A stretch of DNA of 64,000 bases from contig JANXCC010000001.1 in assembly GCA_025060395.1 (NCBI GenBank), forward strand, positions 42,538-106,537. Direction: 5' to 3'. The stretch is from Candidatus Bipolaricaulota bacterium. Its GTDB lineage: Bacteria > Bipolaricaulota > Bipolaricaulia > RBG-16-55-9 > DRXL01. The notes beneath the pieces are model-generated. The model searched no databases and was not told the DNA's origin. It was given only the letters and a program-made list of their open reading frames with translations. Shown here in pieces: positions 12,696-54,986 of the stretch (position 1 is its first letter; the number at the start of each line of letters is the position of its first letter). The translations under genes and the position numbers were made by a program.

Positions 12696-12869
12696 CGCGG
12701 CCTCCTTCTGTATCATAGCCTGTCTCAGTATAGCGAGCGATCCCTCCTGAGACAGTGATTCAAGTTACCCATTCCGCAAGCTCCCCTTGGTTTGAGCATA
12801 GCACAGCTTGTGCCCAAAGGCAAGCGGGCGTAATGGCCATCACATTCTATAAAAATTTACGGGTGCCTT

Positions 12870-13045: not shown

Positions 13046-13120
13046 TAATTTTAGTATCAGGGATAGCCGCTCTCTCAGTCAATGAGGTCTATCAAGAGAA
13101 AACCTGAAGTTGATCAGAAC

Positions 13121-40079: not shown

Positions 40080-41273
40080 ATGGCCTCGATGCCCCCGAGT
40101 CCCCTCATAAGGAAGCGCCTCGCGATCTTAGGTTCGACCGGCTCGGTTGGGTCGCAGACGCTCGCCGTCGTCGAAGCTCTCACTCGAGCCGGGCATGCTT
40201 TTTCGGTGGTAGCCCTGGCAGCAGGCAAGAATTTAGAGCTTCTGGCAGCCCAAGCTCAGCGCTTCCAGCCAAAACTAATCGCCATCGAGCGCGCAAAAGA
40301 CCTGAGCAAGTTGCGACGGCTCGTGGGGACTTTCTGGAGTGGGGAGATCGTCGTCGGCGAGGAGGGACTAATTGCTGCAGCTACTCACCCTGATGCCGAT
40401 CTTATCGTCAACGCCCTGGTCGGCGCCCTGGGGTTGATCCCGACTCTTGAGGCCCTCAAAGCCAAGAAAATCGTCGCACTAGCGAACAAAGAGTCCCTGG
40501 TCATCGGTGGGCATCTCGTGCACGGCGTACAGTCCAAGCGAAGCCTGATCCCCATAGACAGCGAGCACAGCGCGCTCTTCCAGCTCATGCACTCTCTCCA
40601 CCCTAGCGAGATCGAGAGAATTATTCTGACGGCGTCGGGTGGGCCGTTTCGCACTCGTCCGTTAGATTCTTTCGCGCAGATCACGGTAGCAGAAGCCCTG
40701 CAGCACCCCACCTGGCAGATGGGCAAGCGAATCACTATAGATTCAGCGACGCTCGTCAACAAAGCCTTCGAAGTGATCGAAGCCCATTGGCTCTTTGATC
40801 TACCTTATGAAAAAATCTCGGTGCTCATCCATCCGCAGAGCGTTGTGCACGGCTTGGTCGAGCTGACCGATGGCAGCATCCTTGCTCATCTGAGCACGAC
40901 GGATATGAAGCTACCCATTCAGTATGCCCTCACATACCCGGAGCGCGTTCCATCGTCAGTAGCGAGACTAGACTTAGTCAAACAGAAGCTCGAATTTGCG
41001 CCGGTGGGGCGGGAGCGCTATCCGGCATTTTGGCTGGTGTGCGAGGCCGGGCAGCGCGGCGGGACGTTCCCTGCCGTGGCGAACGCTGCCGACGAAGTCT
41101 TCGTACAGAGATTCTTAAAGAACGAGATTCCGTTTGTGGGAATCGCTCGAGGCATAGAGCGAGTGCTTGCGGAGCATGAGGGCGTGCCTACCCCTGCTCT
41201 TGAAGAGATTCTTGAAGCCGATCGGTGGGCGCGCCAGCGAGCTAGCGAATTCCCTCCAAATTCGCTATCATAA
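40080..41273 (+). CDS. dxr: 1-deoxy-D-xylulose-5-phosphate reductoisomerase
   Basis: LGSTGSVG, LANKESLV, PIDSEHSA, HPTWQMGKRITIDSAT. Confidence 0.96.
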   Translation: MASMPPSPLIRKRLAILGSTGSVGSQTLAVVEALTRAGHAFSVVALAAGKNLELLAAQAQRFQPKLIAIERAKDLSKLRRLVGTFWSGEIVVGEEGLIAAATHPDADLIVNALVGALGLIPTLEALKAKKIVALANKESLVIGGHLVHGVQSKRSLIPIDSEHSALFQLMHSLHPSEIERIILTASGGPFRTRPLDSFAQITVAEALQHPTWQMGKRITIDSATLVNKAFEVIEAHWLFDLPYEKISVLIHPQSVVHGLVELTDGSILAHLSTTDMKLPIQYALTYPERVPSSVARLDLVKQKLEFAPVGRERYPAFWLVCEAGQRGGTFPAVANAADEVFVQRFLKNEIPFVGIARGIERVLAEHEGVPTPALEEILEADRWARQRASEFPPNSLS

Positions 41274-41280
41274 TAAAGCT

Positions 41281-42468
41281 ATGGAGAACGCGCGCAAGTG
41301 GTTTGCTGTCTCGGCTGTGTTGTTGCTCCTTTTGGTCTTTACGATCGCCCTTGCAAACTACAATCAAGAGTGGAAGAGGTACCAACGGGCGTATCTGATC
41401 AAAGTCTTCACGGAGAAGGCCTTGGCGGAGAAGGGCTCGCTCTCACTTCTCGATCAGATCGCGATTGCTGTGAGCGCCGAAGCCAATCTTCAGATAAAGA
41501 AGGTCGTCACGGAAGTGGGGCGCAGTGCCGATCTGTGTATGACGTGTCACATCAACGTCGGTGTTCCCGGCTTTGCCCAAGAACCCTTGAAAGATCTCTT
41601 AGAGACCCATAAGAATTTGAAGATCATCGAGCAGTTGCCGTTCGATCAAGTCGGCTGTACCGCATGTCATGGGGGCAACTCTCTAGCGCTGACTTCTGAG
41701 CTCGCTCATCACGAGATGCGCTCGCGCTTTGCCCAGATTTTTGAAGAATCTATCGAGAAGTTGCGCTCGGAACGCTGGGCGGAGCGCCAGCAGGGTATTG
41801 AACGAATTCGCTGGATGACCGCGAACGACTTTGGATTTGTCTTTAACGCCCCGAAGGAGAAACGCGAGGAAGCGATCGCTCGGATTCTCGCGTGGTGGCA
41901 ACTCCACAAAGACACGTTCTTGGTCGAGGGCTTTGGGGAGCGGAGCTCGCCGTTCCGCACAGAAAATCCTCAGGCCAAAGTAATCGAAGCCCGCACCGAC
42001 GTCTCGATCGCTGGGGAACCGTTGCAATTTGTCGGCTCAGCAACATGCGTAGCGTGTCATGGGCATCCCGAGATCAGCGATGCCTACATTCCTGAGTCGA
42101 GCAAGCGTCACGTCGAGCTCTGGTTCCGCCCGGAGTTTATGACCAGCACAAACATTGAAGCATTCAAAGAGCACCCGTTCATAGACGAACAGACCCTCAA
42201 GACCATGGACGTGACGTGCGAGGCGTGTCACGGTCCAGGGAGCGAGTACACGAAGCTGATGCAGAAGGGGATGGCGCTCGAAGCCTTGGGGCAGAGCGTG
42301 GAAGCCGCGGCCTTGATCGCCAAGGGCAAGGAGATCGCGCGCGCCAATGCCCGCACAATCATCAGCGAGCACGACCCGGCAACAGGCTACTCCCGCGTCT
42401 GGGCGATCTTCGAGCGCCTCATCGAAAAGGCATTGGCAGCCCAAGGACAGAACCGCCCTACAGAATAA
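41281..42468 (+). CDS. membrane-anchored tetraheme cytochrome c
   Basis: N-terminal TM helix, QEWKRYQ; CxxCH x4 (CMTCH, CTACH, CVACH, CEACH). Confidence 0.88.
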   Translation: MENARKWFAVSAVLLLLLVFTIALANYNQEWKRYQRAYLIKVFTEKALAEKGSLSLLDQIAIAVSAEANLQIKKVVTEVGRSADLCMTCHINVGVPGFAQEPLKDLLETHKNLKIIEQLPFDQVGCTACHGGNSLALTSELAHHEMRSRFAQIFEESIEKLRSERWAERQQGIERIRWMTANDFGFVFNAPKEKREEAIARILAWWQLHKDTFLVEGFGERSSPFRTENPQAKVIEARTDVSIAGEPLQFVGSATCVACHGHPEISDAYIPESSKRHVELWFRPEFMTSTNIEAFKEHPFIDEQTLKTMDVTCEACHGPGSEYTKLMQKGMALEALGQSVEAAALIAKGKEIARANARTIISEHDPATGYSRVWAIFERLIEKALAAQGQNRPTE

Positions 42469-42551: not shown

Positions 42552-42962
42552 ATGAGGGTGACGCGCAAGAGCGATTATGGGCTCCGGGCGCTTTGTACCT
42601 TGGCTCGGCATTATAATCGCGAACCGGTCTCGATTGGGCAGCTCTCGGCAGAGCACAAGATTCCTGAGCCGTTCCTCGAGAAGATCATGCAGGAGTTACG
42701 CGAGCATGGGTTAGTCGAAGCAACCCACGGGCGGGGCGGAGGATATCTGCTGAAGAAGCGTCCGTCACAGATCTCTCTCCGGGAGATCGTGCAAGCTCTC
42801 GATGGACCAATCGCGCTCGTGACGTGTCTCGATCCCAGCTTAAAATGCGCTATCGAAGATGGCTGTCCCACCAGTCCCATCTGGGAGATCGTGAATCATC
42901 AGCTTGAAGAGTATTTGGCATCGCTCACGCTGAGCGATGTCATGAAACTGCAGGGTGAGTGA
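42552..42962 (+). CDS. Rrf2 family transcriptional regulator (IscR-like, 3 Cys)
   Basis: DYGLRAL, FLEKI, GRGGGY, CLDPSLKCAIEDGCP. Confidence 0.92.
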   Translation: MRVTRKSDYGLRALCTLARHYNREPVSIGQLSAEHKIPEPFLEKIMQELREHGLVEATHGRGGGYLLKKRPSQISLREIVQALDGPIALVTCLDPSLKCAIEDGCPTSPIWEIVNHQLEEYLASLTLSDVMKLQGE

Positions 42963-42971
42963 GGCCCCGTC

Positions 42972-44015
42972 ATGGATCTCAGCGAGCGTGCTCTTGAAGT
43001 CTTGCGCCAGATCGAGATCCCTCGGACTCGCCGGCCCTTGGGTGATCTCATCGAAGATCTCTCCATTGATGGAGGGTCTGTCCATGTGCGGATGAGGCTC
43101 GCTCCTGCCTATGCCTCCAAATCTCAGCTTACCTCGTGGGTCGAGCAAGCTCTTAAGGCCATCCCCGGGGTCGAGAGGGTGCAGGTCGAGTTCGTCCAGA
43201 CTCAGCGCCCGCGCCCGAGGGTGCTCACCCAGAAGGTGCGCTTCCCTCAGATCGCACGGATTCTCGTAGTCTTCAGTGGCAAGGGTGGGGTGGGCAAGAG
43301 TACCGTCAGTGTGAATCTGGCGGTAGCGCTTGCGCAGCAGGGAGCGCGAGTGGGGCTCTTTGACGCCGACGTGCATGGCCCCAATATCCCTACTCTTCTA
43401 GGGCTGACCGAGCCCCCTGTGGTGAAGGAGGGCAAACTCCTCCCGATCTTCAAACACGGGGTTCACGCGATCTCGATTGGCTTATTAGTCGGAGGAGGAG
43501 ATCCGCTCATCTGGCGCGGCCCGATGATATCCAAGGCGATTCGTGAACTTTTAGAGAGCACGGCCTGGCCAGAGCTAGACTATCTGATTGTCGACATGCC
43601 TCCAGGAACAGGAGATGCGCAGCTAGGGTTGGCGCAAGACGTGGAGCTGACAGGTGCCATTGCCGTGACGACCCCCCAGGAAGTGGCGCTCTCCGATGTG
43701 CGTCGAGGCATAGGCGCGTTCTTCAAGCTCCATGTGCCCGTCCTTGGGATCATCGAGAATATGGCGTATTATCTCTGTCCCAAGTGCGGGCATCGAGAAT
43801 ATATCTTCGGTCAAGGCGGCGGTGAGGCCGAAGCCCGGCGACAGAAGATTCCGCTCCTCGGGCAGATCCCGCTAGATCCGAAGCTGCGCGAGGGCGGTGA
43901 CGCCGGTATGCCCATCGTGATCGCTCATCCGTCGTCACCTGCGGCGCAAGAGTTCGGCAAGATCGCTGAGAGGCTCATGAGATATTTTGCTCTCAGTCAA
44001 GGAGAGCAGCAATGA
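42972..44015 (+). CDS. apbC: Mrp/ApbC (NBP35) Fe-S cluster carrier ATPase
   Basis: SGKGGVGKST, DADVHGP, WRGPM, DMPPGTGD, ENMAYYLCPKCG. Confidence 0.93.
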   Translation: MDLSERALEVLRQIEIPRTRRPLGDLIEDLSIDGGSVHVRMRLAPAYASKSQLTSWVEQALKAIPGVERVQVEFVQTQRPRPRVLTQKVRFPQIARILVVFSGKGGVGKSTVSVNLAVALAQQGARVGLFDADVHGPNIPTLLGLTEPPVVKEGKLLPIFKHGVHAISIGLLVGGGDPLIWRGPMISKAIRELLESTAWPELDYLIVDMPPGTGDAQLGLAQDVELTGAIAVTTPQEVALSDVRRGIGAFFKLHVPVLGIIENMAYYLCPKCGHREYIFGQGGGEAEARRQKIPLLGQIPLDPKLREGGDAGMPIVIAHPSSPAAQEFGKIAERLMRYFALSQGEQQ

Positions 44016-44341
44016 AGGAGGAGGTGACTCTCTATATGTCTCCTGACGAGATCCGCGAAGTGATTCGGGAGAACGTCTTCGACCCCGAGTTGGGCTACAA
44101 TGTCGTGGATCTGGGGTTGCTTTACGACGTCGAAGTCCGCGGTGACAAAGATGTCCGCCTCGAGATGACGCTGACGACTGTGGGCTGCCCGCTCTACGAG
44201 CAGATCCAAGCCGATTGCGAGCGCGCTATCAAAGAGCACTTCGGCGAAGACGTCAACGTCGAGGTCGACTTCGTCTTCGATCCCCCATGGACCCCAGAGA
44301 TGATGTCAGAAGAGATCCGCGCGGAGATGGGTTTCATCTAA
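44012..44341 (+). CDS. DUF59/SufT-like Fe-S maturation protein
   Basis: DPELGYNVVDLGL, MTLTTVGCP, FDPPWTPEMM. Confidence 0.92.
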   Translation: MKEEVTLYMSPDEIREVIRENVFDPELGYNVVDLGLLYDVEVRGDKDVRLEMTLTTVGCPLYEQIQADCERAIKEHFGEDVNVEVDFVFDPPWTPEMMSEEIRAEMGFI

Positions 44342-44974
44342 ATGGCTCTCTGTGTGTACTGTGCCAAGAAGGCGGGCAAACGCTCATGCCCAGCGCTGGG
44401 AGGCCTCATCTGTCCCAGCTGTTGTGGACACCATCGAGGTATCGCGATCAGTTGTCCCGTTAGTTGCAAGTATCTCAAGACCCACGAGAGCTATCAACGG
44501 GTCCGCCTAGCGGAAGAGTTCCACGCGCTCTGGGTTGAGAAGACGGAACCGCTCTATAAGGCCGGCAAGGAGCGCTCAATCGATCTTCTAGTATGGATAG
44601 AGATGCTGATCTATCAGTTCTATCGTGAGCGCGCGTTGGGCACAGACAGCGAAGTCGTCGAGGCCCTTGAATTTTTGCGACGTCGGTTCAGTTCGTTGAT
44701 AATCGTCGAAGCCGGAGGTACGACCTTAGCCAAGCATCTGTGGGAAGGACTCCAAGAGTTTCTCAAGAGAGAGTCGTTCCCTGCAGAAGCGGTCTCTGAG
44801 GTTCTCGAGAAGAGCCTTGAGATCTTTCGGGCGTATGTAGACCCTGCACAACCACGAAGGTATTTGCACGGGATGTTGGGCCATGTCGAGCGATATTTTA
44901 CGCTCCCTGACGAGTTGAAAGGAAGTCCGTCGCTAATTGCTACCCCGCAGATCGTCACGCCCAAGATGTCTTAG
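44342..44974 (+). CDS. hypothetical protein with Cys-rich N-terminal metal-binding domain
   Basis: CVYC...CPALGGLICPSCCG...CPVSCKYL; start abuts the upstream stop. Confidence 0.7.
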   Translation: MALCVYCAKKAGKRSCPALGGLICPSCCGHHRGIAISCPVSCKYLKTHESYQRVRLAEEFHALWVEKTEPLYKAGKERSIDLLVWIEMLIYQFYRERALGTDSEVVEALEFLRRRFSSLIIVEAGGTTLAKHLWEGLQEFLKRESFPAEAVSEVLEKSLEIFRAYVDPAQPRRYLHGMLGHVERYFTLPDELKGSPSLIATPQIVTPKMS

Positions 44975-44981
44975 CGAACGG

Positions 44982-46025
44982 CTATTTCCAAGGGAGGACC
45001 CACTCCCACTGCGGACCGCGGAAGTACTGCCCGATAATGATTAGCACGATTATGGCTCCAACGACGAGCGTAAAGAGTGCGGTGGTGACGGGGCGATCTC
45101 GCAGCCGGCGTCCCACGGGTTTGCTCTTGTCTTTGCGCCAAAACTCGAGATAGGGCTCAATATACGGAATAGCCATCAAGAAGAGCACAAGGAGCGCAGG
45201 GATGATCACTCCGCCAATTGCTACGCTCGTCAACGGCCCAATATTAGGGGAGATCGCCAGGAGCTCTTGAATCCCCACGAAGTACCACGGGGCTTTTTCA
45301 GGGTTAGGCGTGAACGATGGGGTTGCCGGCTCTTCCAGCGGGGCATCGCGGAAGACAGAGTAGATCCCTAAGCCCGCTATTAAGAAGAACAGCACGGTGA
45401 ACGCCACATAAAGAAAGTATGGGTAGGTGATAATCTCTTCTTCTTCGGCGGGCAGGCGCTTCGCAAACGCTTCTAAAATCTTCTCGATCTTCTCACCGGT
45501 CAGCTCAGGGATCTCTTGAGCTCTGTGGTCCTTGCCGATATAGCTGAAGACGGCATAGAGCACCTCGAAATCGTTAGGATCGCCACCGCCCTCTAAGAGC
45601 GACTCCGTGCGATTACTTAAATCTTTTAGTCTCTTGACAGTGATCTTCTGGGTGGAGGGCAGCTCGCTCAAGGGGATCTTTTCGGCCGCATAGGCGAGGA
45701 CAGTACGCACCAGCTCCGGTTCAATCTGAATCGCTTCAGCAACCTCATAGCCAGGGACTTCGACTTCAATATCTTGATTGACAGAGATCTGGCACGAGAG
45801 TCTCCAGCCCTTGGCAAGTTGCTCTTCCCCTAAGACTTCTTTCTCGTTTTGGTTGGGGTCTCCACCGCCCTTGAGGACGCGCACAGCACACGTTGAGCAT
45901 TGCCCCTGGCCTCCACAGGTTGCCGGGAGCTGATCATCATAGCGCTGCTCTTTCAAGAGCTGCAAGAGATTGGTCCCAGGGCGAACGTCGAGCTCTTTTT
46001 GTCCTAGAATGACGACCTTGGGCAT
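44982..46025 (-). CDS. petD: [2Fe-2S] ferredoxin fused to cytochrome b6f-type subunit IV (cytochrome b C-terminal part)
   Basis: CGGQGQCSTC...LSCQ; then APLEEPA...TPNPEKAPWYFVGIQELL, IPYIE and three TM helices. Confidence 0.85.
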   Translation of the reverse strand: MPKVVILGQKELDVRPGTNLLQLLKEQRYDDQLPATCGGQGQCSTCAVRVLKGGGDPNQNEKEVLGEEQLAKGWRLSCQISVNQDIEVEVPGYEVAEAIQIEPELVRTVLAYAAEKIPLSELPSTQKITVKRLKDLSNRTESLLEGGGDPNDFEVLYAVFSYIGKDHRAQEIPELTGEKIEKILEAFAKRLPAEEEEIITYPYFLYVAFTVLFFLIAGLGIYSVFRDAPLEEPATPSFTPNPEKAPWYFVGIQELLAISPNIGPLTSVAIGGVIIPALLVLFLMAIPYIEPYLEFWRKDKSKPVGRRLRDRPVTTALFTLVVGAIIVLIIIGQYFRGPQWEWVLPWK

Positions 46026-46026
46026 A

Positions 46027-46665
46027 TCAGCTGACCCTCACTCCTACTTCAGCTGCTGCTTGTCGGAGTCTCTCGAGAACGGGCTTACCGCCAGGATAGC
46101 AACCATCGAGCTTGGCCTTTCCTGCTGCCAGCGCTTCAGCGAACTCTTCGCAAGTCGGGTAGCCACAGGCCGAGCAATCGAATCCGGGGAGGACTGCGCG
46201 CAGCTTAGCCGCTGCCGGTGAGAGCGCCGGGGCCTTCGGAGCCTCTTCGACAGCCTTACCTTCGACCTTGGGCCAAGACATCACTAAGGGCTTAAAGAGC
46301 TCAATTGTGAGATCGTTCTTCACCGAGATCTGGCATGAGAGGACCCAGCCCTCCTTGCGCAATTTGTCGCTTAATGGGCCGAGCATCGCCGGGGTGATCT
46401 GCTCAGGCTTAAGCCCGTCTAAGACTTTGACACGACACGTCGCGCACGTACCTTTGCCGCCACACTGAGCAAACAGATCGTACCCCGCTTTCTTGAGGGA
46501 TTGCATCAGATTTTGTTCTAACGGCAAGACCAGCTCATTGCCATCATTTACTATCTTGACTTTCGCTTCACCCTCAACCGTAAGCAGGTTCTTCACTACC
46601 CCTAAGATGACAGCGACGGAGATGGCCATGAGAGCCATCGTCGCTACGGGCACAAGGTAGACCAT
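46027..46665 (-). CDS. membrane-anchored NqrF-like [2Fe-2S] domain + RnfB-like Fe-S domain chimera
   Basis: TM helix; CGGKGTCATC...LSCQ; LPGFDCSACGYPTCEEFA...CYPGG. Confidence 0.85.
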   Translation of the reverse strand: MVYLVPVATMALMAISVAVILGVVKNLLTVEGEAKVKIVNDGNELVLPLEQNLMQSLKKAGYDLFAQCGGKGTCATCRVKVLDGLKPEQITPAMLGPLSDKLRKEGWVLSCQISVKNDLTIELFKPLVMSWPKVEGKAVEEAPKAPALSPAAAKLRAVLPGFDCSACGYPTCEEFAEALAAGKAKLDGCYPGGKPVLERLRQAAAEVGVRVS

Positions 46666-46666
46666 C

Positions 46667-47263
46667 TTAGCCTCCAAAGTCACGAATGTTAATCATCCCT
46701 GAGAACCCTACGAAGCTCATGGCCATTAACCCTGCGATGATGAGGGCGATCCCTGGGCCTTTAAGCCCTTCAGGGATGGGGGCGAATCGCAGGCGTTCTC
46801 TAATAGCAGCCATAAGGATAATCGCGAGCGCCCAGCCAACTCCACCACCAAACCCGTAGGCCACGCTTTGCATGAAGCCCAGATTCCACGTGGCAATCGC
46901 GAAGAGCACCCCGCCTAAGATCGCGCAATTGACCGTGATCAACGGCAAGAAGATCCCCAGCGAGCTATACAGCGCTGGGAGGAAGCGCTTCATGAACATC
47001 TCCACAACCTGAACCAAGAACGCGATCGTGACAATATAGACGATGAGCGACAGATACCCTACGCCCAACGGATCGAGCACGAAGTGCTTAATGAGCCAGT
47101 TAGCAGGCAAGGTCATCGTCAGCACGAAGATGACCGCCATGCCCATCCCTGACGCCGACGCGTACTCCCCTGATACCCCAATAAACGGGCAGATCCCCAG
47201 AAACGTCGTCAGCAGAATATTATTCGTTAAGATCGCACCCAGCACGATGAGGAAGATGTCCAT
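46667..47263 (-). CDS. rnfA: Rnf subunit A (NqrE family)
   Basis: FLGICPF, GMGMAV, FLPLITVNCAILG, MSFVGF. Confidence 0.93.
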   Translation of the reverse strand: MDIFLIVLGAILTNNILLTTFLGICPFIGVSGEYASASGMGMAVIFVLTMTLPANWLIKHFVLDPLGVGYLSLIVYIVTIAFLVQVVEMFMKRFLPALYSSLGIFLPLITVNCAILGGVLFAIATWNLGFMQSVAYGFGGGVGWALAIILMAAIRERLRFAPIPEGLKGPGIALIIAGLMAMSFVGFSGMINIRDFGG

Positions 47264-47266
47264 ATC

Positions 47267-47950
47267 TTAGGAGCCACCTCCGATCTGCCCGCCTGGCGAG
47301 AAGTGCTTGACGATCCCAACGTACAGCCCGACAACCAAGAATGCCCCGGCGGGGATGATCATGATGACCCAGGGGGTCCAGCCGCTGAAAATCTGAATGC
47401 CAAAGAGACTGCCAAAGCCCAGCAGCTCACGGATAATCCCTAGAAGCGTCAACGACATTGTGAATCCCAGGCCGACTCCCAAAGCATCGAGCGCTGAGAG
47501 CCCAGGGCTGTTCTGGCTCGCAAACGCTTCAGCACGCCCTAACACAAAGCAGTTTGTAATAATTAACGGGACATACGGGCCCAAGGCTGCCGACAGCGGC
47601 GGCAGATACGCCCGCAAGAAGATATCGACGATCGTAACCCAGAACGCAATGATGATCATGTACGCTGGGAGTCGCACCTCCGCAGGGATGAGGGTGCGTA
47701 GAGCTGCCACCGTAACACTGGAAGCAACGGTCGCGACCAGCGTTGCCAGCCCCTGCGCCATGCCGTTGATGGCCATGTTCGTAGCGCCCATAGTGGGACA
47801 CATCGCCAAGATCATTCGGAATGTCGGATTATCATCCCAGATGTCACGAACTAACTCTTTCCACCCCTTGGTCTGGGGCAGCCGCTGCGTTAATGGGATC
47901 GCTGGAGCTGATGCTTGTTGCATCGTCGTTGTCTTCACTTCTGCCGCCAT
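47267..47950 (-). CDS. rnfE: Rnf subunit E (NqrD family)
   Basis: LAMCPT, VRLP, PLIITNCFVLGRAEAFA, IRELLGFG, PAGAF. Confidence 0.93.
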   Translation of the reverse strand: MAAEVKTTTMQQASAPAIPLTQRLPQTKGWKELVRDIWDDNPTFRMILAMCPTMGATNMAINGMAQGLATLVATVASSVTVAALRTLIPAEVRLPAYMIIIAFWVTIVDIFLRAYLPPLSAALGPYVPLIITNCFVLGRAEAFASQNSPGLSALDALGVGLGFTMSLTLLGIIRELLGFGSLFGIQIFSGWTPWVIMIIPAGAFLVVGLYVGIVKHFSPGGQIGGGS

Positions 47951-47983
47951 CTGCCTCAACTCCTTCTGGCCGGCTTTGGCCAC

Positions 47984-48016
47984 AAAAAGCATACTATAAT
48001 AGTCTGCTTTTTTCAA
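47984..48016 (-). promoter_or_regulatory. AT-rich palindrome containing a putative internal promoter
   Basis: Minus strand TTGAAA-17nt-TATGCT overlapping an AAAAAGCA.ACTAT.ATAGT.TGCTTTTT inverted repeat. Confidence 0.45.
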
Positions 48017-48022
48017 GGCTCG

Positions 48023-48718
48023 CTACCGGCGCTCTTTTTGCACGATCTTGCGTAGGTTCGCGATCGCCTGGTTCAGCAGATCCCGCACGGTCGTCGACGT
48101 ATACGTCGCCCCGGTGATCGCGTCGAATTGATTAGGAGCCTTAGGGGTGTTGGGATCACGGAACTTGACGAATTCGATCCTAGGATCAGGCTTGATCCCC
48201 TTGAACTGGCTCCAGAACTGTTCTTCAGTCATGCGGAAGCCCAGTCCTGGGGTCTCCCCGATCTCGAAGGTGACGACGTGAGCCCCGATAATCTCAGAGA
48301 GATCAGGCTTGAGGGCGACTTGCATCGCGACCAGCCCCTGAAAGCCGCTCCCCGCAATGCGGATCACATAAGCCATTAGATCCCCACCGATCTTGTCTTT
48401 GTAGACCTTCCAATAGGTGAAGCTGTCCGTCTTGATCTCTTCAATATGCTCTTTGAAATACTGATCGACCTGGGCGGCGGAGAGCTTGGGCAATCCCTCG
48501 GCGGGAAAGAGCTCTTCGGCGGTGTACAGCCCTACAGCCACGAGAATACTCGATCTCAACCGAGCTTTGGCGTTCGCTTCGATGGTCGCTTTGGTCACTT
48601 CGTTGACAAGAGCAAGCAGCCCGCCGGCGATCGCCGCGATCGCCGTCAGCACGATGATCATGCGCCACTCGTGCGGCCCGATCAGCTTCTTCTGCTTCTT
48701 GGGAGCTTGCTGTGCCAT
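48023..48718 (-). CDS. rnfG: Rnf subunit G (FMN-binding)
   Basis: N-terminal TM helix, GSGFQG, ETPGLG, FMNylation motif DAITGATYTS. Confidence 0.92.
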   Translation of the reverse strand: MAQQAPKKQKKLIGPHEWRMIIVLTAIAAIAGGLLALVNEVTKATIEANAKARLRSSILVAVGLYTAEELFPAEGLPKLSAAQVDQYFKEHIEEIKTDSFTYWKVYKDKIGGDLMAYVIRIAGSGFQGLVAMQVALKPDLSEIIGAHVVTFEIGETPGLGFRMTEEQFWSQFKGIKPDPRIEFVKFRDPNTPKAPNQFDAITGATYTSTTVRDLLNQAIANLRKIVQKERR

Positions 48719-48722
48719 GGAA

Positions 48723-49841
48723 TCACCTCTTTTGGATCGCGGGAGCGGAGAAGCTCTTTGGGATTGTGAATCTGTCGAGCAACGGCGTGAACATATTGCC
48801 AATCAAGATAGAGAACGTCACCCATTCGGCGTAGCCGGTCAGCCCACGTCCTAGGACCGTCAGCACACCGAGCATCATCCCGAAGATCCAACGGCCACGG
48901 ACGGTCATAGGGCTGGTGACAGGATCAGTCGCATTGAGAAATGCCGCAAAGAGCAAGCCTCCTGACAACATCGTGTAGAGGCCATCGGGGAATCTAGAGG
49001 GATCGACGAAGTGGAGGAACTGTGAGGTTAGCCCGGCGCTCACGATCATCACAATCGAAACGCGCCAATCGATGACTCGTGCCTGCAGCAGATACAAGCC
49101 GCTCAAGAGCACGAGCATGGCTGAAGTGGCCCCTAGGACGTCTGCGCGTCCAAACCCTGTCACGAGCGTAAACAGATCGGGATTGGCAAGAGCAGGATCC
49201 CTGAAGGCTCCCAGAGGGGTTGCCTTAGCAATAGCATCGAGCCCCTTGACCGACTCCGGCGACCAATGTAAAAAGCCCCCAAGCCCATCGGTTAGGGGAT
49301 TGAAGGGTACATACCAGAAGTTGGTCATTGCTGCGGGAAACGCTAATAACAAGAAGGCTCGCCCGCTGATCGCCGGGTTGAAGATATTGTAGCCTGAGCC
49401 CCCAAAGAGCTCTTTGATCCCAATAGCAAAGGCAATCCCCACCGCAACCATCCAGAAAGGCAGCGTTGGGGGCAACGAGAGCGCGTAGAGCATACACGTC
49501 ACTAGGAGCCCCTCGGTAATCTCATGGCGACGAATAGCACAGAACGTAAGCTCTACAGCAATCCCCACAAGATACGTTACGATGATGATCGCTAGCGAGC
49601 GCCAGCCGTAAAAGTATATGCTGGCCAAGACCAAGGGGATGCACGCCAGGAGCGGTGCGCCCATATAGCGTTGCATCCCGATTGCATCGCGGATATAGGG
49701 AGCTTGACGAGCAGCCTTCTCGCTGCCGCCGAAGATCGCGTCCTTAATGCCCTCGACGATAATAGCCAAACCCTCACGACGGCGTGCTACCAAGTCTTGA
49801 TGAATTCTTTCGAACAGCTCGTAGATTCTGTCCTGAAGCAT
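48723..49841 (-). CDS. rnfD: Rnf subunit D (NqrB family)
   Basis: KELFGGSGYNIFNPA, FMNylation site KATPL, ATDPVTSP. Confidence 0.93.
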   Translation of the reverse strand: MLQDRIYELFERIHQDLVARRREGLAIIVEGIKDAIFGGSEKAARQAPYIRDAIGMQRYMGAPLLACIPLVLASIYFYGWRSLAIIIVTYLVGIAVELTFCAIRRHEITEGLLVTCMLYALSLPPTLPFWMVAVGIAFAIGIKELFGGSGYNIFNPAISGRAFLLLAFPAAMTNFWYVPFNPLTDGLGGFLHWSPESVKGLDAIAKATPLGAFRDPALANPDLFTLVTGFGRADVLGATSAMLVLLSGLYLLQARVIDWRVSIVMIVSAGLTSQFLHFVDPSRFPDGLYTMLSGGLLFAAFLNATDPVTSPMTVRGRWIFGMMLGVLTVLGRGLTGYAEWVTFSILIGNMFTPLLDRFTIPKSFSAPAIQKR

Positions 49842-49854
49842 ATTCTACTCCTCT

Positions 49855-51282
49855 CTAGGCAGCTTCAGCCAGGATCTTACGCTTGCCTTCACGAATCTGC
49901 TCCAACAGCGGGATCTTGCTGGGACAGACATACGCGCACAGGCCACACTCAATACACGCAAAGAGATCCATGTCCTGGGCTTCGCTCAAGAGCCCATGGG
50001 CGGAGTATTCCCCAAGCAACGCCGGCATGAGATTCTGGGGACATACATCGACACAGAAGCCGCACCTGACGCACGGCCTAGGATTACCGTTCAAGCTTGT
50101 GGTTGCGCGTTTGTAGCGAACCCAGGGCACGCTTAGATAAACGCCGGTGAACGAGTCGCGATCAAATCCTGGGCCAGCCACGGGAAAGAGCTCACGCTCG
50201 GCTTCTCGTAACACGATGACCGCGGAAATCTCTTTAGTAATCGGGGTATTGAGATCGTCCTGGGCCTGCCCGCGCAGGACGCTCCCCAGGACAATCCGCC
50301 CATTACACTTCGTATTATTATTCTCCAACAGATTGCTTAAAGGCGTACCCACGCGCACCCGATAGTTCCCTGGCTCTTGAATAGCTGAGCCAGCCACTGA
50401 AACGACGCGCTCGACGAACGGCTTACCCTCGACGACGGCCTCGTAGGCCGCTACACACTGCTGGACGTCTTGCACGACGCAGCCAACGTCGGTCGCGTAG
50501 CCCCGCTGGGGCAGGAGCACCCCCAGGAGGGTGCGAATGAGCACGGCATCGTCATGCTGGGGATATTTGGGGCGCAATTGGTGAATCGTGCACCAATCAT
50601 AGTATTCCAAGCGCTCGATCAGCTCTTCGTAGATCCTGGGTTTGTTATACCCAAGCCCAATATGTACCTGAACGTTACCCAGGGCTTGGCGCAGGATCTT
50701 CATCCCGTTTACGAACTTGTCGAACTCTTCATAGAGCAACTGATCGGTGGCTTCGCAGAACGGCTCGGTCTCGACGGCATTAATGATGAGATAGCGAATC
50801 TTCTCAGGGGTGGTGAACGCCGAGTGATAGGCGGTAGGGAAGCCAGCTTGGCCACCGGCTGTGACCCCTGCTTCGTAGAGAATTCTTCCTAGCTCTTCTG
50901 GGGAGAGCCTCTCGTAGTTAGCGGGAGGGTTGAGCTTGGCCCAATCGTCCTTGCCGTCGGACTCGATGTGGACGCAGAGCGTCTCACCTCCTAGGGGGTG
51001 AGGGCGCTTGTCGATCTTGACGACCCTGCCCGAGATGCTCGCGTGGACAGGGGTTGAAGGCTTCTTGGGATTGGGCTCAGCCCGCCCGATTATCTGCCCT
51101 GTCTTGACGCGGTCGCCCTCCTTGACGACAGGAGCCACTTCGGCGGAAAACCCCTGACGCAAAGGGATGATCACTCTTTGGGGTGTCGGCGCTGTTTTTA
51201 ATCTCTTGCCGCGCGGTGTCCCCTCAAAGAGCCCAAAGTAGTGGCCACCTTTAAAGGTCTTCAGAGATCCCAAGACGGCCAT
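49855..51282 (-). CDS. rnfC: RnfC-like subunit with degenerate FMN/NAD motifs and two [4Fe-4S] clusters
   Basis: FKGG, VKEGDRVKTGQ, PVHASISG, AGFPT, CVRCGFCVDVCP, CIECGLCAYVCPS. Confidence 0.88.
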   Translation of the reverse strand: MAVLGSLKTFKGGHYFGLFEGTPRGKRLKTAPTPQRVIIPLRQGFSAEVAPVVKEGDRVKTGQIIGRAEPNPKKPSTPVHASISGRVVKIDKRPHPLGGETLCVHIESDGKDDWAKLNPPANYERLSPEELGRILYEAGVTAGGQAGFPTAYHSAFTTPEKIRYLIINAVETEPFCEATDQLLYEEFDKFVNGMKILRQALGNVQVHIGLGYNKPRIYEELIERLEYYDWCTIHQLRPKYPQHDDAVLIRTLLGVLLPQRGYATDVGCVVQDVQQCVAAYEAVVEGKPFVERVVSVAGSAIQEPGNYRVRVGTPLSNLLENNNTKCNGRIVLGSVLRGQAQDDLNTPITKEISAVIVLREAERELFPVAGPGFDRDSFTGVYLSVPWVRYKRATTSLNGNPRPCVRCGFCVDVCPQNLMPALLGEYSAHGLLSEAQDMDLFACIECGLCAYVCPSKIPLLEQIREGKRKILAEAA

Positions 51283-51284
51283 TG

Positions 51285-52043
51285 CTAACGTCGCTTCCTT
51301 TCTTCAGTCCAGTAGGGCTTGCTGTACTCGTCCTTGCGGATCCTCCAGAAATGGAACGCTATGAGGAAGATCGTAATCATGGGCAACACAAAGACGTGAA
51401 GCACATACCAACGCAGGAGCGCCGGCTGCCACAGGTCTGTGCCGCCTAGCAGAATCTCCTGGACATACGGCCCCACAACGGGCACCCCAGCGGCAATGTT
51501 GCTAGCGATCTTGGCGGCATAATAGCCCAGCTGATCCCACGGCAGAATATACCCGCTAAAGGCAAAGAGAACCGTAATCACCAGGAGCAGCACCCCGATG
51601 ACCCAATTGAATTCCCTGGGCTTCTGATACGATCCGGTGAAGAAGACCCGCAGCATATGGAAGAAGACGGCAAAGACCATCAGCTCCGCAGCCCACTTGT
51701 GCATATTGCGCATAAATCTGCCCAAAGGAACTACGTTGATGATCTCCCGGACAGAGTCATAAGCGCGCTCGACCGAGGGCACGTAATAGAACATCAAGAA
51801 GCCACCAGTGATAGCCAAGATAAGGAAGAGCCAGGTGCTGATAACCCCCATCCAGACCCAGTTATAACTGAGTCTCGCTGATTCTTTATGAATCTTAGCG
51901 GGGAGAATATGTACGAAGAAGTTGCGGCGATTCATGGCGAGTCGGTCGGCTTCGGTCTGAGGTAATCCCTCACGACGGAAGATCGAGAGCCAGACTCGCG
52001 AGCGTCGGATGCCCTGTAAGATTAGAAGGATCTTGTCGATCAT
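51285..52043 (-). CDS. petB: cytochrome b6-type (split cytochrome b, N-terminal four-helix part)
   Basis: Four heme His ligands (MHKW, FHML, LHVF, FHFW); PREFNW, GYILPWDQ. Confidence 0.93.
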   Translation of the reverse strand: MIDKILLILQGIRRSRVWLSIFRREGLPQTEADRLAMNRRNFFVHILPAKIHKESARLSYNWVWMGVISTWLFLILAITGGFLMFYYVPSVERAYDSVREIINVVPLGRFMRNMHKWAAELMVFAVFFHMLRVFFTGSYQKPREFNWVIGVLLLVITVLFAFSGYILPWDQLGYYAAKIASNIAAGVPVVGPYVQEILLGGTDLWQPALLRWYVLHVFVLPMITIFLIAFHFWRIRKDEYSKPYWTEERKRR

Positions 52044-52603
52044 GAGAACTTGATGTCGCTCCCGTCGGGTGTGGGACCTTCGATCTCTTGGCCTTCAACC
52101 GTGAGATACCAGGTAGAAGGGACAGTCTGAGCGTTGTCGACCTGAAGGCGTCCATCGGGCGTCAGGGATAGCCTGTAGAATGGTAACGGCTTAGGAGCCG
52201 GTCCCCCGAGCACCCGCCCATCACGCGCAAAGACGCTCCCATGACAAGGACAGACAGCGTGCACCACAGGATATTCTCGGGTTGGTGGCCCAAACGGCTT
52301 ATAGCTGCACCCCAGATGGGTGCAAGTCATAGAGAGTGCTTGGAAGCCTAAGGGTGTTCGGAATATCAGGACCCTCTTGGCTTCGATAGGACGCATCTCC
52401 CCGACTTGATAATCACTGGGACGTCCCACTATGAAAGTTGTTGTGGGCTCGTAGGTAAGTCGTGGTTTGAGATAGAAGGGGATACCTTGGGCTATGCCTC
52501 CAAGGGCCAGAGCGAGCGATCCCCACCCTAGCCATCCTAAGAAGCGTCGCCGCGTCAACGACCCTATGGGAAGCTCGATAGTCGAATCTCTCTCGGCTTC
52601 CAT
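52040..52603 (-). CDS. petC: Rieske [2Fe-2S] protein with Tat signal-anchor
   Basis: LTRRRFL, CTHLGC, CPCHGS, GPAPKPL. Confidence 0.93.
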   Translation of the reverse strand: MEAERDSTIELPIGSLTRRRFLGWLGWGSLALALGGIAQGIPFYLKPRLTYEPTTTFIVGRPSDYQVGEMRPIEAKRVLIFRTPLGFQALSMTCTHLGCSYKPFGPPTREYPVVHAVCPCHGSVFARDGRVLGGPAPKPLPFYRLSLTPDGRLQVDNAQTVPSTWYLTVEGQEIEGPTPDGSDIKFS

Positions 52604-52650
52604 CAAGCCACCCTTCTCCTTCACATTGCAGCCGCACTGTCGTGTGCCGC

Positions 52651-52679
52651 ATTATAGCAAGGGCTCTACGTCCTGTCAA
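52651..52679 (-). promoter_or_regulatory. promoter of the Rieske/cytochrome b-Rnf operon
   Basis: Perfect TTGACA-17nt-TATAAT with extended TG. Confidence 0.85.
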
Positions 52680-52755
52680 ACGGTGAGCTTGAGGCATAGC
52701 TTGATGACATGCGTCATGTGAGGGTCCTCCTCCTTTTTGCTATGATATCATATTG

Positions 52756-53350
52756 ATGTTTACCGGGATCATCATCGACACGGGCGAGGTCGTGTATGCC
52801 AGCTCGCATCGCCTGACCGTGAGCACCCCTAGGCTCTTTAAGGAGCTAGAGATCGGACGGAGTATCGCGGTCAACGGCGTATGCTTGACTATTATTGAGC
52901 TTACCCCAGCGTCAGAGAGCTTTTCAGCGGAGCTCAGCCCCGAGACGCTTGCGCGCACGAACTTGGGGTTGCTGCGGCGCGGCGATCTCGTCAATTTGGA
53001 ACTGCCCTTGAGGCTTTCGGATCGTCTCGATGGGCACTTCGTGCTGGGGCACGTCGACACTGTTGGGGAGGTCGTCTCGATCTCCCGGAAAGAGAAGGGC
53101 GCGGTCTTCCGTTTTCGGGTCGACGCAAGATACTCGCCCTACCTCATCGAGAAAGGCTCGATCGCCCTCGATGGGATCAGCTTGACGATCTTTAATATTC
53201 GCAACGGGGAGTTCGACGTCGCGGTCATTCCCCACACGCTAGAGCAGACGAATCTACGCACGCGGCGTCCGGGGGATAAGATCAACGTTGAGTTCGATGT
53301 GCTGGGGAAATACATAGAGAAATTGTTCCAAGACAAAGGAGGCCAGCGAG

Positions 53351-53364
<14 letters not shown>
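52756..53364 (+). CDS. ribE: riboflavin synthase (alpha chain)
   Basis: [37 protein letters not shown]. Confidence 0.96.
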
Positions 53365-54566
<1,202 letters not shown>

Positions 54567-54577
<11 letters not shown>

Positions 54578-54986
54578 GATCGCGATCGTCGTCAGTCAGT
54601 TTAATAAAGAGATCACCCAAGAGCTGCTCAAGGCTGCGCAAGAAGAGCTTCAGCGAGCTGGGGTCGCGGAGATTGATGTCTTTTGGGTGCCGGGGGCGTT
54701 TGAGTTGCCCGCAACGGTGAAGCGTTTAGCTCAAGTGGGGCGCTATGATGGGATTCTGCCGCTGGGGTGCGTGATCAAGGGGGAGACCGCGCACTTTGAG
54801 CATATCGCTCGGGCAGTCGCTGATGGACTCATGCGCGTGACGCTCGAATGTGATACTCCCATAGTCTTTGGGGTGCTGACGCCGTACACCGAAGAGCAGG
54901 CGTGGGCGCGGATCTACAAAGGCGCTGAAGTCGCCAAGAGCCTAATAGAACTGATTCATCTTCGGCGGAAGCTGAGATCTGCCTAG
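54567..54986 (+). CDS. ribH: 6,7-dimethyl-8-ribityllumazine synthase
   Basis: [24 protein letters not shown]. Confidence 0.95.

What the first reader, a model, noticed from the sequence alone, without database searches (positions are those of the whole stretch)
44982..52679. Rnf genes nested inside a split Rieske/cytochrome b operon: candidate Rnf-bc hybrid respiratory complex
Seen: one consensus promoter heads petC(Rieske)-petB-rnfC-rnfD-rnfG-rnfE-rnfA-(NqrF/RnfB chimera)-(Fd-petD). Gaps are 13 nt or less except one of about 70 nt, and the two halves of cytochrome b bracket the whole Rnf block. Established: PetB and subunit IV must co-assemble and are normally adjacent; canonical Rnf couples ferredoxin to NAD+ and has no quinol-oxidising module. 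Inference: the products form one machine linking the quinone pool/cytochrome c with the ion-translocating Rnf flavin/Fe-S wire, for example quinol-based bifurcation plus ion-driven uphill ferredoxin reduction, or ferredoxin-to-quinone respiration. I know of no description of this arrangement but could not search the literature.
Basis: partly seen in the sequence, partly recalled or inferred. Interest (0 to 1): 0.93.

Follow-up and report, generated by a model that had tools for sequence, protein, structure and literature searches.

The report
Rnf genes inside a cytochrome b operon
A hot-spring bacterium of the phylum Bipolaricaulota keeps the genes of an Rnf-type ion pump nested between the two halves of a cytochrome b complex, with extra iron-sulfur domains that look built to wire the two into one respiratory machine.

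Summary
One perfect sigma-70 promoter heads nine tightly packed minus-strand genes. They are Rieske, cytochrome b6, RnfC, RnfD, RnfG, RnfE, RnfA, an NqrF/RnfB chimera, and a [2Fe-2S]-ferredoxin fused to subunit IV.

The nesting is not chance or misassembly. It recurs in 26 Bipolaricaulota species, and none of 54 loci from other phyla has it. Relatives supply natural deletions:
- Form B lacks RnfG/E/A.
- One congener, form C, lacks Rieske, b6 and Fd-subunit IV together.

A co-fold with controls places the conserved cytoplasmic linker of Fd-subunit IV on the flavin domain of RnfC (0.67, 0.00, 0.67; best control 0.00).

Best reading: the RnfC flavin is a junction joining NAD(H), the ion-coupled Rnf wire to ferredoxin, and haem b/menaquinone. 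This gives cells that lack a complex I NADH module an NADH/ferredoxin entry into an oxygen-terminated chain. The direction of electron flow is inferred, not shown. The APWY quinol-site motif leaves reverse operation open.

A 2012 paper noted the cluster in one sentence; later work read it as plain Rnf. It is a new variant of a known kind. The closest concept is the NAD(P)-linked Rieske/cytochrome b complexes proposed in anammox bacteria.

The parts
52651..52679 (-). Sigma-70-type promoter TTGACA-N17-TATAAT with TG extension
   Evidence: 12 of 12 matches. Sequence read. The same promoter is kept in G008 directly ahead of rnfC.
52040..52624 (-). Rieske [2Fe-2S] protein. Likely ATG start at 52603. 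Carries the twin-arginine motif RRRF and the cluster boxes CTHLGC and CPCHGS.
51285..52043 (-). Cytochrome b6-type subunit with four helices. All four haem-ligand His are kept. Trp stands at the position of the haem cn Cys (residue number recalled).
   Evidence: ExtP-like, 258 bits; b6 subfamily, 202 bits; alignment to solved b6 chains, E 2.5e-48.
49855..51282 (-). RnfC with a NuoF-like flavin/NADH domain (GGQAGFPT, NAVETEP), two 4Fe-4S motifs, and a 37-residue insert ahead of the cluster domain.
   Evidence: Predicted docking surface for Fd-subunit IV.
48723..49841 (-). RnfD with the flavinylation Thr in LDAIAKATPL.
48023..48802 (-). RnfG. Likely ATG start at 48718. Flavinylation motif DAITGATYTS.
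47267..48016 (-). RnfE
46667..47263 (-). RnfA
46027..46683 (-). Fd-RnfBN, made of a TM helix, an NqrF-like [2Fe-2S] domain and the RnfB-type first 4Fe-4S domain. It has no polyferredoxin. The 212-aa form starts at 46665.
44982..46025 (-). Fd-subunit IV, made of a [2Fe-2S] domain (1-92), a conserved helical linker (about 100-190) and three TM helices with the Qo motif APWY.

Best explanation
The operon encodes an integrated respiratory assembly found only in Bipolaricaulota. It consists of an Rnf-type module (RnfCDGEA plus a chimeric RnfB) wired on the cytoplasmic side to a b6-type, APWY-motif Rieske/cytochrome b menaquinol module.

The wire is a pair of paralogous NqrF-like [2Fe-2S] domains. 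One replaces the polyferredoxin of RnfB. The other is fused to the N-terminus of subunit IV, through a helical linker that docks on the NuoF-like flavin domain of RnfC.

The RnfC flavin would then be a three-way junction between:
- NAD(H);
- the Na+/H+-coupled Rnf wire to low-potential Fe-S/ferredoxin;
- [2Fe-2S] to haem b to menaquinone.

Preferred direction: NADH and reduced ferredoxin feed menaquinone and, through the Rieske centre, a chain that ends in a haem-copper oxidase.

Shown: gene content, cofactor motifs, conservation, natural deletion forms, co-occurrence patterns. Predicted: the RnfC to Fd-subunit IV contact. Inferred: the electron path, the direction, and the junction role of the flavin.
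For: 1. Conservation. All 20 Bipolaricaulota loci with enough sequence have Rnf genes between b6 and Fd-subunit IV. All 54 loci from other phyla have plain adjacent b6 and subunit IV genes and no Rnf.

2. Co-fold. Scores were 0.67, 0.00 and 0.67 over three runs, with the best of three controls at 0.00. Replacing RnfC abolishes the score. The tool states that 58 of 80 solved complexes and 2 of 110 mismatched pairs reached the mark, and that these counts hold only roughly for my own alignments. The contact uses the most conserved linker residues, R132, D135, R139 and G146-D149.

3. Topology. The N-terminus of subunit IV and RnfC are both cytoplasmic. This follows from homology and from the positive loop at 294-311.

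4. The two Fer2 domains are 49% identical, E 1e-15.

5. Form B keeps RnfC and RnfD with the Pet genes although RnfG/E/A are gone.

6. In G008, Rieske, b6 and Fd-subunit IV are all missing from the same locus. That genome also gave no cytochrome b and no COX1. Four of 18 otherwise invariant interface positions of its RnfC are changed, against 19 of 263 elsewhere.

7. COX1 was found in 25 of 27 genomes with Fd-subunit IV and in 2 of 14 without it.

8. No NuoF reached its cut-off in any of 41 genomes, and 10 of 16 form-A genomes gave no NuoH. MenA, ApbE and haem O synthase are present in G000.

9. Cofactor motifs are intact.
Against: - One of three co-fold runs scored 0.00, and the tool reports contact agreement between runs of 'at least 0%'. 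The job had three chains and used my own 19-row alignments, unlike the calibration.
- The modules are separable. G008 keeps RnfCDGEA-FdB open, with dN/dS of 0.02-0.08, like its kin (dS is saturated). Form B drops the pump core.
- No c-type cytochrome lies in the operon, so the acceptor of the Rieske centre is unknown.
- The haem cn cysteine is absent, so injection in the manner of b6f cyclic flow is not available.
- The APWY motif is linked in print to reverse operation (PMC4122944, section 13 and passages).
- The co-occurrence counts are phylogenetically dependent.
- NDH-2 was not searched.
- No expression data are available.
- Cofactor distances were not obtained.
Confidence: 0.5

Rival explanations
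1. Same integrated assembly, running the other way. Menaquinol is oxidised at the Qo site. One electron goes to the Rieske centre and a high-potential acceptor. The other passes through the b haems and the subunit IV [2Fe-2S] to the RnfC flavin and reduces NAD+. The Rnf core, driven by ion influx, can then lift electrons further to ferredoxin.
For: - The Qo motif is APWY. Kao and Hunte place such cytochromes in an uncharacterised clade that they associate with reverse operation.
- The anammox precedent pairs a b6-type complex with an n-side NAD(P) reductase (PMC12954380, sections 3 and 13 read).
- A link at the RnfC end makes the NADH-to-ferredoxin direction of Rnf compatible with ion influx.
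- The genome carries Wood-Ljungdahl-type corrinoid proteins that need reduced ferredoxin (FeS-domain hits; identity inferred).
Against: - With menaquinone at about -70 mV, the Rieske acceptor must sit well above +170 mV, before the cost of crossing the membrane is counted (own arithmetic).
- The Rieske box is CPCHGSVF, with Phe where high-potential centres carry Tyr (recalled).
- NuoF-like genes that may belong to bifurcating hydrogenases (about 500 bits, below the NuoF cut-off, identity inferred) could make NADH and ferredoxin from H2 without this route; they were found in 17 of 41 genomes, G000 among them, and in 6 of the 16 form-A genomes.
- No high-potential reductase or multihaem subunit lies in the operon, unlike in anammox.
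Confidence: 0.2
2. Two independent complexes that merely share a transcript. One is an Rnf variant using soluble ferredoxin through its unusual RnfB. The other is an ordinary menaquinol:cytochrome c oxidoreductase whose subunit IV carries a ferredoxin domain for its own purposes.
For: - Form C (G008) keeps the Rnf genes without any Pet gene, under purifying selection.
- Form B drops RnfG/E/A.
- Operons often combine functionally related but physically separate complexes.
Against: - The nested order is kept in 20 of 20 complete loci over protein identities down to about 50%.
- RnfC and RnfD are retained with the Pet genes after the loss of the pump core. They would then have no known partner.
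- The co-fold predicts a specific RnfC to subunit IV contact, with controls at 0.00.
- G008 RnfC has lost its GGQAGFPTA loop and shows changes at the interface.
Confidence: 0.2
3. Flavin-based bifurcation at RnfC. NADH oxidation sends one electron downhill to menaquinone through the subunit IV [2Fe-2S] and haem b, and one uphill through the Rnf wire to ferredoxin.
For: The predicted position of a [2Fe-2S] domain beside a NuoF-like flavin domain that also has a 4Fe-4S exit. This resembles the layout of NuoF/HydB-type bifurcating enzymes (recalled).
Against: - No cofactor distances were obtained.
- Canonical RnfC is not known to bifurcate.
- Form B lacks the uphill wire yet keeps RnfC and Fd-subunit IV.
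Confidence: 0.07

Closest known systems
Canonical Rnf complex (RnfCDGEAB), as in Acetobacterium woodii, Clostridium tetanomorphum and Azotobacter vinelandii (solved structures 9eri, 7zc6, 8ahx)
   Same: Subunits C, D, G, E and A are in the same order. The RnfC flavin/NADH loop and two 4Fe-4S motifs are kept, as are the flavinylation threonines in D and G.
   Different: - RnfB lacks all polyferredoxin domains and carries an NqrF-like [2Fe-2S] domain instead.
- RnfC has a 37-residue insert.
- The operon is bracketed by Rieske/b6 and Fd-subunit IV.
- Hybrid RnfC forms its own clade (100/100), apart from the canonical RnfC of class relatives G037 and G039.
NAD(P)-oxidoreductase-containing Rieske/cytochrome b complexes of Kuenenia stuttgartiensis (Kuste4569-4574, Kustd1480-1485), proposed and not yet shown to work
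   Same: A b6-type cytochrome plus a subunit IV-like protein, with an NAD(P)-linked Fe-S/flavin module modelled on the negative side (PMC12954380, sections 3 and 13).
   Different: - There the module is an FAD-type reductase, multihaem c subunits are present, and haem cN is modelled.
- Here the module is RnfC/RnfD with a whole Rnf pump, no c-type subunit lies in the operon, and there is no haem cn cysteine.
Na+-NQR of Vibrio cholerae
   Same: The TM helix plus [2Fe-2S] domain of NqrF is the best structural and sequence match for both Fer2 domains. The membrane core is homologous.
   Different: There is no FAD/NADH domain on the NqrF-like protein. The A-position subunit is a true RnfC with Fe-S clusters. 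Rnf models outscore Nqr models.
Methanosarcina acetivorans Rnf with the multihaem cytochrome MmcA
   Same: An Rnf complex that has gained a cytochrome partner to reach a membrane carrier (only the abstract start was seen in the search listing, 10.1101/2022.07.20.500911).
   Different: The partner there is a c-type multihaem protein, not a Rieske/cytochrome b complex.
Cytochrome b6f with bound FNR/ferredoxin in cyclic electron flow
   Same: Plant-type [2Fe-2S] chemistry is brought to the n-side of a b6/subunit IV core (PMC5600118, passages).
   Different: The ferredoxin domain here is covalently fused to subunit IV. There is no haem cn cysteine. The carrier is menaquinone, not plastoquinone.

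Membership tests
Rnf complex | Six subunits C, D, G, E, A and B encoded together | tested here: inconclusive
   C, D and E are above their NCBIfam cut-offs. G (83.2 against 102) and A (220 against 229.3) fall below but are the best hits. B reaches 47.5 bits against TIGR01944, below the 68.7 cut-off.
Rnf complex | RnfB with an N-terminal cluster domain plus 4Fe-4S ferredoxin domains that take electrons from ferredoxin | tested here: not met
   Only PF04060 and Fer2 are found, with no Fer4 domain. A canonical RnfB with Fer4 domains exists in relative G037.
Rnf complex | Covalent-FMN threonines in RnfD and RnfG, with ApbE present | tested here: met
   Alignments to solved RnfD and RnfG. ApbE at 245.9 bits in G000.
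Rnf complex | RnfC with a flavin/NADH site and two 4Fe-4S clusters | tested here: met
   Motif residues are invariant in 19 sequences. One Gly of the loop is Gln.
Rnf complex | Ion-translocating ferredoxin:NAD+ oxidoreductase activity | not testable with these tools
   Needs biochemistry.
Na+-NQR | NqrF with FAD- and NADH-binding domains, and NqrA without Fe-S clusters | tested here: not met
   The NqrF-like protein ends after the FeS domain at 218 aa. The A-position protein carries two 4Fe-4S motifs.
b6f-type Rieske/cytochrome b complex | Split cytochrome b (four-helix b6 plus subunit IV) with four haem-ligand His | tested here: met
   The subunit IV part matches ExtQ (E 1.8e-12) and TIGR01156 (E 0.0027).
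b6f-type Rieske/cytochrome b complex | Rieske protein with CTHLGC and CPCHGS boxes and Tat export | tested here: met
   Sequence; RRRF motif.
b6f-type Rieske/cytochrome b complex | Covalent haem cn on a conserved Cys of b6 | tested here: not met
   The alignment starts one residue after that Cys, and the query has Trp there. The residue number is recalled.
b6f-type Rieske/cytochrome b complex | A c-type cytochrome subunit encoded with the complex | tested here: not met
   None among the nine genes. A c-type cytochrome ORF lies 2.5 kb away at 41167-42468 on the other strand.
APWY clade of cytochrome b (Kao and Hunte 2014) | Qo motif APWY | tested here: met
   PEKAPWYF is invariant in 10 of 11 sequences, with one KSPWYF. 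The pattern FTPNPEKA also hit Acidobacteriota, Desulfobacterota, Nitrospirota and others.
APWY clade of cytochrome b (Kao and Hunte 2014) | Placement inside that clade on a cytochrome b tree | not tested
   No cytochrome b tree was built. The paper's supplementary table S3 could not be opened.

The most novel reading that the evidence does not exclude
The RnfC flavin is a true energy-converting junction. The assembly couples three redox pools (NAD(H), ferredoxin, menaquinone) and two kinds of membrane energisation (the Rnf ion pump and the Q cycle) in one particle. It could then make reduced ferredoxin and NADH from menaquinol when an oxidant is present, or bifurcate NADH between menaquinone and ferredoxin. 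That would be a third route to low-potential electrons, besides soluble flavin-based bifurcation and plain reverse Rnf.
Probability: 0.2. Interest if true: 0.95.

Novelty: new variant of a known kind. Interest (0 to 1): 0.78.

Why it matters
Genome papers on Bipolaricaulota (Acetothermia, OP1) model their 'Rnf' as the ordinary ferredoxin:NAD+ pump of acetogens (PMC9586279, passages). In G000 the only Rnf A/E genes found in the 88%-complete assembly lie in this hybrid operon, and no canonical RnfB was found. Those energy budgets may therefore rest on a misread enzyme.

If the assembly is real, three things follow:
- It is a second, independent case of an NAD(H) module bolted to the negative side of a Rieske/cytochrome b complex. 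The natural deletion series (forms A, B, C) could be used to test the contested anammox idea.
- It bears on the old question of what quinones and cytochromes do in acetogens.
- It gives the uncharacterised APWY clade of cytochrome b a tractable context.

Tried and rejected
- Misassembly or chance: rejected. The same order occurs in independently assembled genomes of 26 species.
- Link at the RnfB end, my first model: dropped. With NADH entering at RnfC, it would force the pump to import ions during a downhill reaction. In the co-fold's best run all listed confident contacts were between RnfC and Fd-subunit IV.
- G008 as proof that the Rnf part works alone: weakened. Its RnfC has lost the GGQAGFPTA loop. 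dN/dS is still low, but dS exceeds 1, so the ratio is rough.
- Canonical RnfB elsewhere in G000: not found. The other two FeS-domain hits lie in 495-aa and 638-aa frames.
- Second Rnf locus in G000: not found in the 88%-complete assembly.
- Fold search of the Fd-subunit IV model (mean pLDDT 66): only the Fer2 domain matched, NqrF first. Nothing matched the linker.
- Atlas search of the linker (95-198): no feature hit, only small unnamed helical proteins by structure.
- PDB sequence search did not reach solved subunit IV chains at E 0.01.
- Expression: no RNA holder listed.
- Dibrova 2017 (PMC5600118): 0 occurrences of Rnf, Acetotherm or OP1. Kao and Hunte 2014: 0 occurrences of Rnf, Acetotherm or OP1.
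- Searches for a prior description. One search (RnfC + RnfD + Rieske + cytochrome b + operon) returned 0 papers. Only PMC3267732 mentions the cluster. The library holds open papers only.
- Supplements were closed. Table S3 of PMC4122944 and Dataset S2 of PMC9586279 may bear on clade membership and on how the genes were annotated.
- NDH-2, hydrogenases and the Wood-Ljungdahl genes were not searched systematically.

Full report
THE OBSERVATION

The region holds nine co-directional ORFs on the minus strand. Pfam and NCBIfam identify them, in order, as:
1. Rieske
2. a b6-type cytochrome b
3. RnfC
4. RnfD
5. RnfG
6. RnfE
7. RnfA
8. a protein with a plant-type Fer2 domain followed by the RnfB-type 'FeS' domain
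9. a protein with a Fer2 domain followed by a subunit IV/ExtQ-like membrane part

RnfC, RnfD and RnfE exceed NCBI's curated Rnf cut-offs. RnfG and RnfA fall just short, but Rnf is still their best family, and Rnf models outscore Nqr models throughout.

A 12-of-12 promoter with a TG extension lies at 52679-52651. It is the only perfect match in 44000-53500. The junctions are an overlap or gaps of 1 to 13 nt. The exception is RnfG/RnfE, about 70 nt with an ATG start or 6 nt with the TTG.

COFACTORS

- Cytochrome b6 aligns to solved b6 chains (E 2.5e-48) and keeps all four haem-ligand histidines. At the residue just before the alignment, where b6 carries the haem cn cysteine (position recalled), it has Trp.
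- The Rieske protein has an RRRF Tat motif and the CTHLGC and CPCHGS boxes.
- RnfC aligns to A. woodii RnfC (217 bits). It keeps both 4Fe-4S motifs and the NuoF-like loops GGQAGFPT and NAVETEP. These are invariant or nearly so in 19 sequences spanning forms A and B.
- RnfD and RnfG keep the flavinylation threonines, and the genome encodes ApbE.
- The eighth protein matches V. cholerae NqrF residues 8-127, the TM helix plus [2Fe-2S] domain (E 1.3e-10). It also matches the first cluster domain of solved RnfB chains. It has no Fer4 domain.
- Both Fer2 domains keep four cysteines. They are 49% identical to each other, closer than either is to NqrF (about 31%).
- The subunit IV part has three predicted helices and the motif PEKAPWYF. 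This is the Qo motif APWY.

WHOSE GENOME, AND HOW WIDE

The window lies in an 88%-complete, 1.70-Mb assembly. Hot-spring metagenome runs hold the stretch. Record titles of close relatives name Candidatus Bipolaricaulota or Acetothermia. Some are titled Fraserbacteria or Thermotogae but count as the same genus or order in the genome search.

A scan of one genome per species for Fd-subunit IV returned 80 loci.
- 26 loci, all of this group, match from residue 1 on, Fer2 domain included (24 over the full length; in L047 and L048 the two halves are separate ORFs).
- In all 26, Fd-RnfBN sits directly upstream.
- All 20 loci with enough upstream sequence have RnfC and RnfD between b6 and Fd-RnfBN.
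- The other 54 loci match only the subunit IV part. They come from Acidobacteriota, Ignavibacteria, Desulfobacterota, Nitrospirota, Acidimicrobiia and others. They have b6 immediately upstream and no RnfD/G/E/A.
- Four of those 54 have a short ferredoxin-type hit to RnfC residues 404-464 only.

The chimeric RnfB family is small, with 55 clusters at E 1e-5 or better in the 5.8-billion-protein collection. 54 of the 55 have the Fer2 plus FeS architecture (the weakest has Fer2 only), and the ones that carry a source name are called 'ferredoxin', '2Fe-2S protein' or 'NqrF'.

THREE NATURAL FORMS

Among the 41 related genomes, 27 have Fd-subunit IV.

Form A is the nine-gene form, as in the window. 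It occurs in 16 of them, judged by the presence of RnfA/E.

Form B occurs in 11. It reads Rieske, b6, RnfC, RnfD, Fd-RnfBN with a longer membrane N-terminus, Fd-subunit IV. RnfG, RnfE and RnfA are absent.

G014 is intermediate. An ORF after RnfD carries a clear remnant of the RnfA C-terminus fused to an extra Fer2 domain, and a TM-less Fer2-FeS protein follows. Form B therefore derives from form A by deletion.

On an RnfC tree the hybrid proteins form one clade (100/100), apart from the canonical RnfC of class relatives G037 and G039.
- The family f2 and f3 form-B sequences form one clade (97/97), sister to a form-A sequence.
- G014 groups with family f1 form A, though weakly (81/33).
- The pump core was thus probably lost twice.

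G037 has an ordinary apbE-rnfCDGEAB operon with a Fer4-type RnfB.

Form C is G008, a congener that is 90% complete, on a 114-kb contig with no masked bases. It has the same promoter, the same riboflavin synthase gene upstream and the same 210-aa ORF downstream. Only RnfC, D, G, E, A and Fd-RnfBN remain. Rieske, b6 and Fd-subunit IV are all gone.
- G008 gave no cytochrome b and no COX1 anywhere, but it keeps MenA.
- Its RnfC lacks the nine residues of the GGQAGFPTA loop.
- Four of 18 positions that are both in the predicted interface and invariant in nine Pet-containing kin are changed, against 19 of 263 elsewhere.
- Its six genes show dN/dS of 0.02-0.08 against the window, like Pet-containing kin at 0.01-0.13. 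dS exceeds 1, so this is rough.

A PREDICTED PET-RNF CONTACT

I co-folded three chains, each as a 19-row alignment: RnfC, the soluble part of Fd-RnfBN (38-218), and the cytoplasmic part of Fd-subunit IV (1-200) as the scored partner.

- The scores were 0.67, 0.00 and 0.67. The best of three controls was 0.00, including a control with RnfC replaced.
- The partner pLDDT was at least 73.
- The tool reports run-to-run contact agreement of 'at least 0%'.
- The tool's calibration is 58 of 80 solved complexes and 2 of 110 mismatched pairs reaching the mark. It warns that these counts hold only roughly for my alignments and for a three-chain job.

The confident contacts are between RnfC residues 121-127, 185-192, 202-204, 220-230 and 284-285 and subunit IV residues 8, 10, 28-32 and 125-151.

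The stretch 125-151 holds most of the conserved linker positions (R132, D135, R139, G146-D149). No relative of the linker with a known function was found, and no like complex is solved as far as the searches show. This supports binding but does not show it.

GENOMIC PHYSIOLOGY

- G000 has MenA (121.9 bits, cut-off 102), haem O synthase and a COX1.
- It also has a second, conventional Rieske/cytochrome b cluster with multihaem c-type cytochromes beside a CRP/FNR regulator.
- COX1 was found in 25 of the 27 genomes with Fd-subunit IV and in 2 of the 14 without. Both of those two are 69-70% complete.
- No NuoF reached its cut-off in any of the 41 genomes. The hits of about 500 bits lie in long frames typical of hydrogenase- or formate-dehydrogenase-linked homologues; that last point is inferred.
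- NuoH of 400 bits or more was found in 10 of 11 form-B genomes, with the eleventh a fragment, and in none of 16 form-A genomes. Ten of the form-A genomes gave no NuoH at all.
- These counts are not phylogenetically independent. At best they represent two contrasts.

HOW IT MOST LIKELY WORKS

In both Rnf and Na+-NQR, electrons that run from the B/F subunit through A/E and G to D drive ion export (established knowledge, recalled). A cytochrome b link at the RnfB end would therefore make NADH-to-quinone flow import ions, which is implausible. The co-fold instead puts the subunit IV [2Fe-2S] arm on RnfC.

That yields a coherent scheme in which the RnfC flavin connects three routes:
- NAD(H);
- the ion-coupled Rnf wire, whose far end (Fd-RnfBN) meets ferredoxin;
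- the path from [2Fe-2S] through haem b to menaquinone at the n-side site.

Running forward, reduced ferredoxin pumps ions on its way to the flavin. Electrons at NADH level then enter menaquinone, and the Rieske/Qo side passes them on toward the oxidase.

Form B keeps exactly the parts needed for the NAD(H)-to-quinone link and loses the ferredoxin-linked pump. It does so in genomes that have a high-scoring Nuo membrane arm and no NuoF above the cut-off. Form C loses the quinone link together with the rest of the aerobic chain. All of this fits the scheme, but none of it proves it.

I put the integrated assembly with forward flow at about 0.5. The same assembly running in reverse is about 0.2. 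That reverse scheme is quinol bifurcation to NAD+ and, with ion influx, on to ferredoxin. Mere co-transcription of two separate complexes is about 0.2.

The APWY motif argues for reverse operation. Its clade is uncharacterised and has been associated with reverse operation (PMC4122944).

COMPARISON WITH WHAT IS KNOWN

Takami et al. 2012 wrote that rnfCDGEAB of Ca. [quoted passage not shown] In the passages shown they counted eight genes and did not mention the split cytochrome b, the ferredoxin fusions or the chimeric RnfB.

Colman et al. 2022 treat the Acetothermia Rnf as the canonical pump. 'Rieske' occurs 0 times in their main text.

The nearest concept is the pair of Kuenenia Rieske/cytochrome b complexes with NAD(P) reductase modules, proposed to make NAD(P)H by quinol bifurcation (PMC12954380). 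This is therefore a new variant of a known, still hypothetical, kind. Its NAD(H) module is RnfC/RnfD, and it carries a whole Rnf pump.

Noticed in passing
window 52753-54986 (+): A riboflavin biosynthesis operon lies divergently next to the promoter of this flavin-rich operon. Its genes are riboflavin synthase, fused DHBP synthase/GTP cyclohydrolase II, and lumazine synthase. The same neighbour is kept in G008.
   Followed up: partly
window 42552-44341 (+): An Rrf2-family regulator, an Mrp/NUBPL-type Fe-S carrier ATPase and a small FeS_assembly_P protein lie just downstream, convergent with the operon. These may supply cofactors for its many clusters.
   Followed up: no
window 44342-44974 (+): A 210-aa ORF with a cysteine-rich N-terminus and no Pfam match abuts the end of the operon. 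An ORF of the same length sits at the same place in G008.
   Followed up: no
window 41167-42468 (+): A 433-aa ORF gives several weak c-type cytochrome hits. It is a candidate acceptor for the Rieske centre, since the operon has no c-type subunit.
   Followed up: no
L103 (G000 contig C4, 10750-17743): A second, conventional Rieske/cytochrome b cluster is followed by several multihaem c-type cytochromes and a formate-dehydrogenase-gamma-like cytochrome b. A CRP/FNR regulator lies next to it.
   Followed up: partly
L106 (G008) 12018-13406 (-): RnfC of the Pet-less congener lacks the nine-residue GGQAGFPTA flavin loop and two further residues nearby. The gene is nevertheless open, with low dN/dS.
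   Followed up: partly
L114 (G039 contig C37) 171-7527: A five-gene Rnf/Nqr-like cluster has no B/F subunit: an RnfC-like 505-aa protein, then proteins of 363, 204, 199 and 198 aa. It sits between ubiE and a polyprenyl synthase on one side and a UbiA/MenA-type prenyltransferase on the other. This may be a separate quinone-linked Rnf relative.
   Followed up: no
L047, L048 (G032, G030): The ferredoxin-linker part and the subunit IV part are separate ORFs, about 200 and 162 aa, instead of one fusion.
   Followed up: no
G000 C66:68558-69268 and most relatives: A second, shorter RnfC-like paralogue (about 365 aa, about 140 bits, matching model positions 115-357) is present in nearly every genome searched, whatever the operon form.
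   Followed up: no
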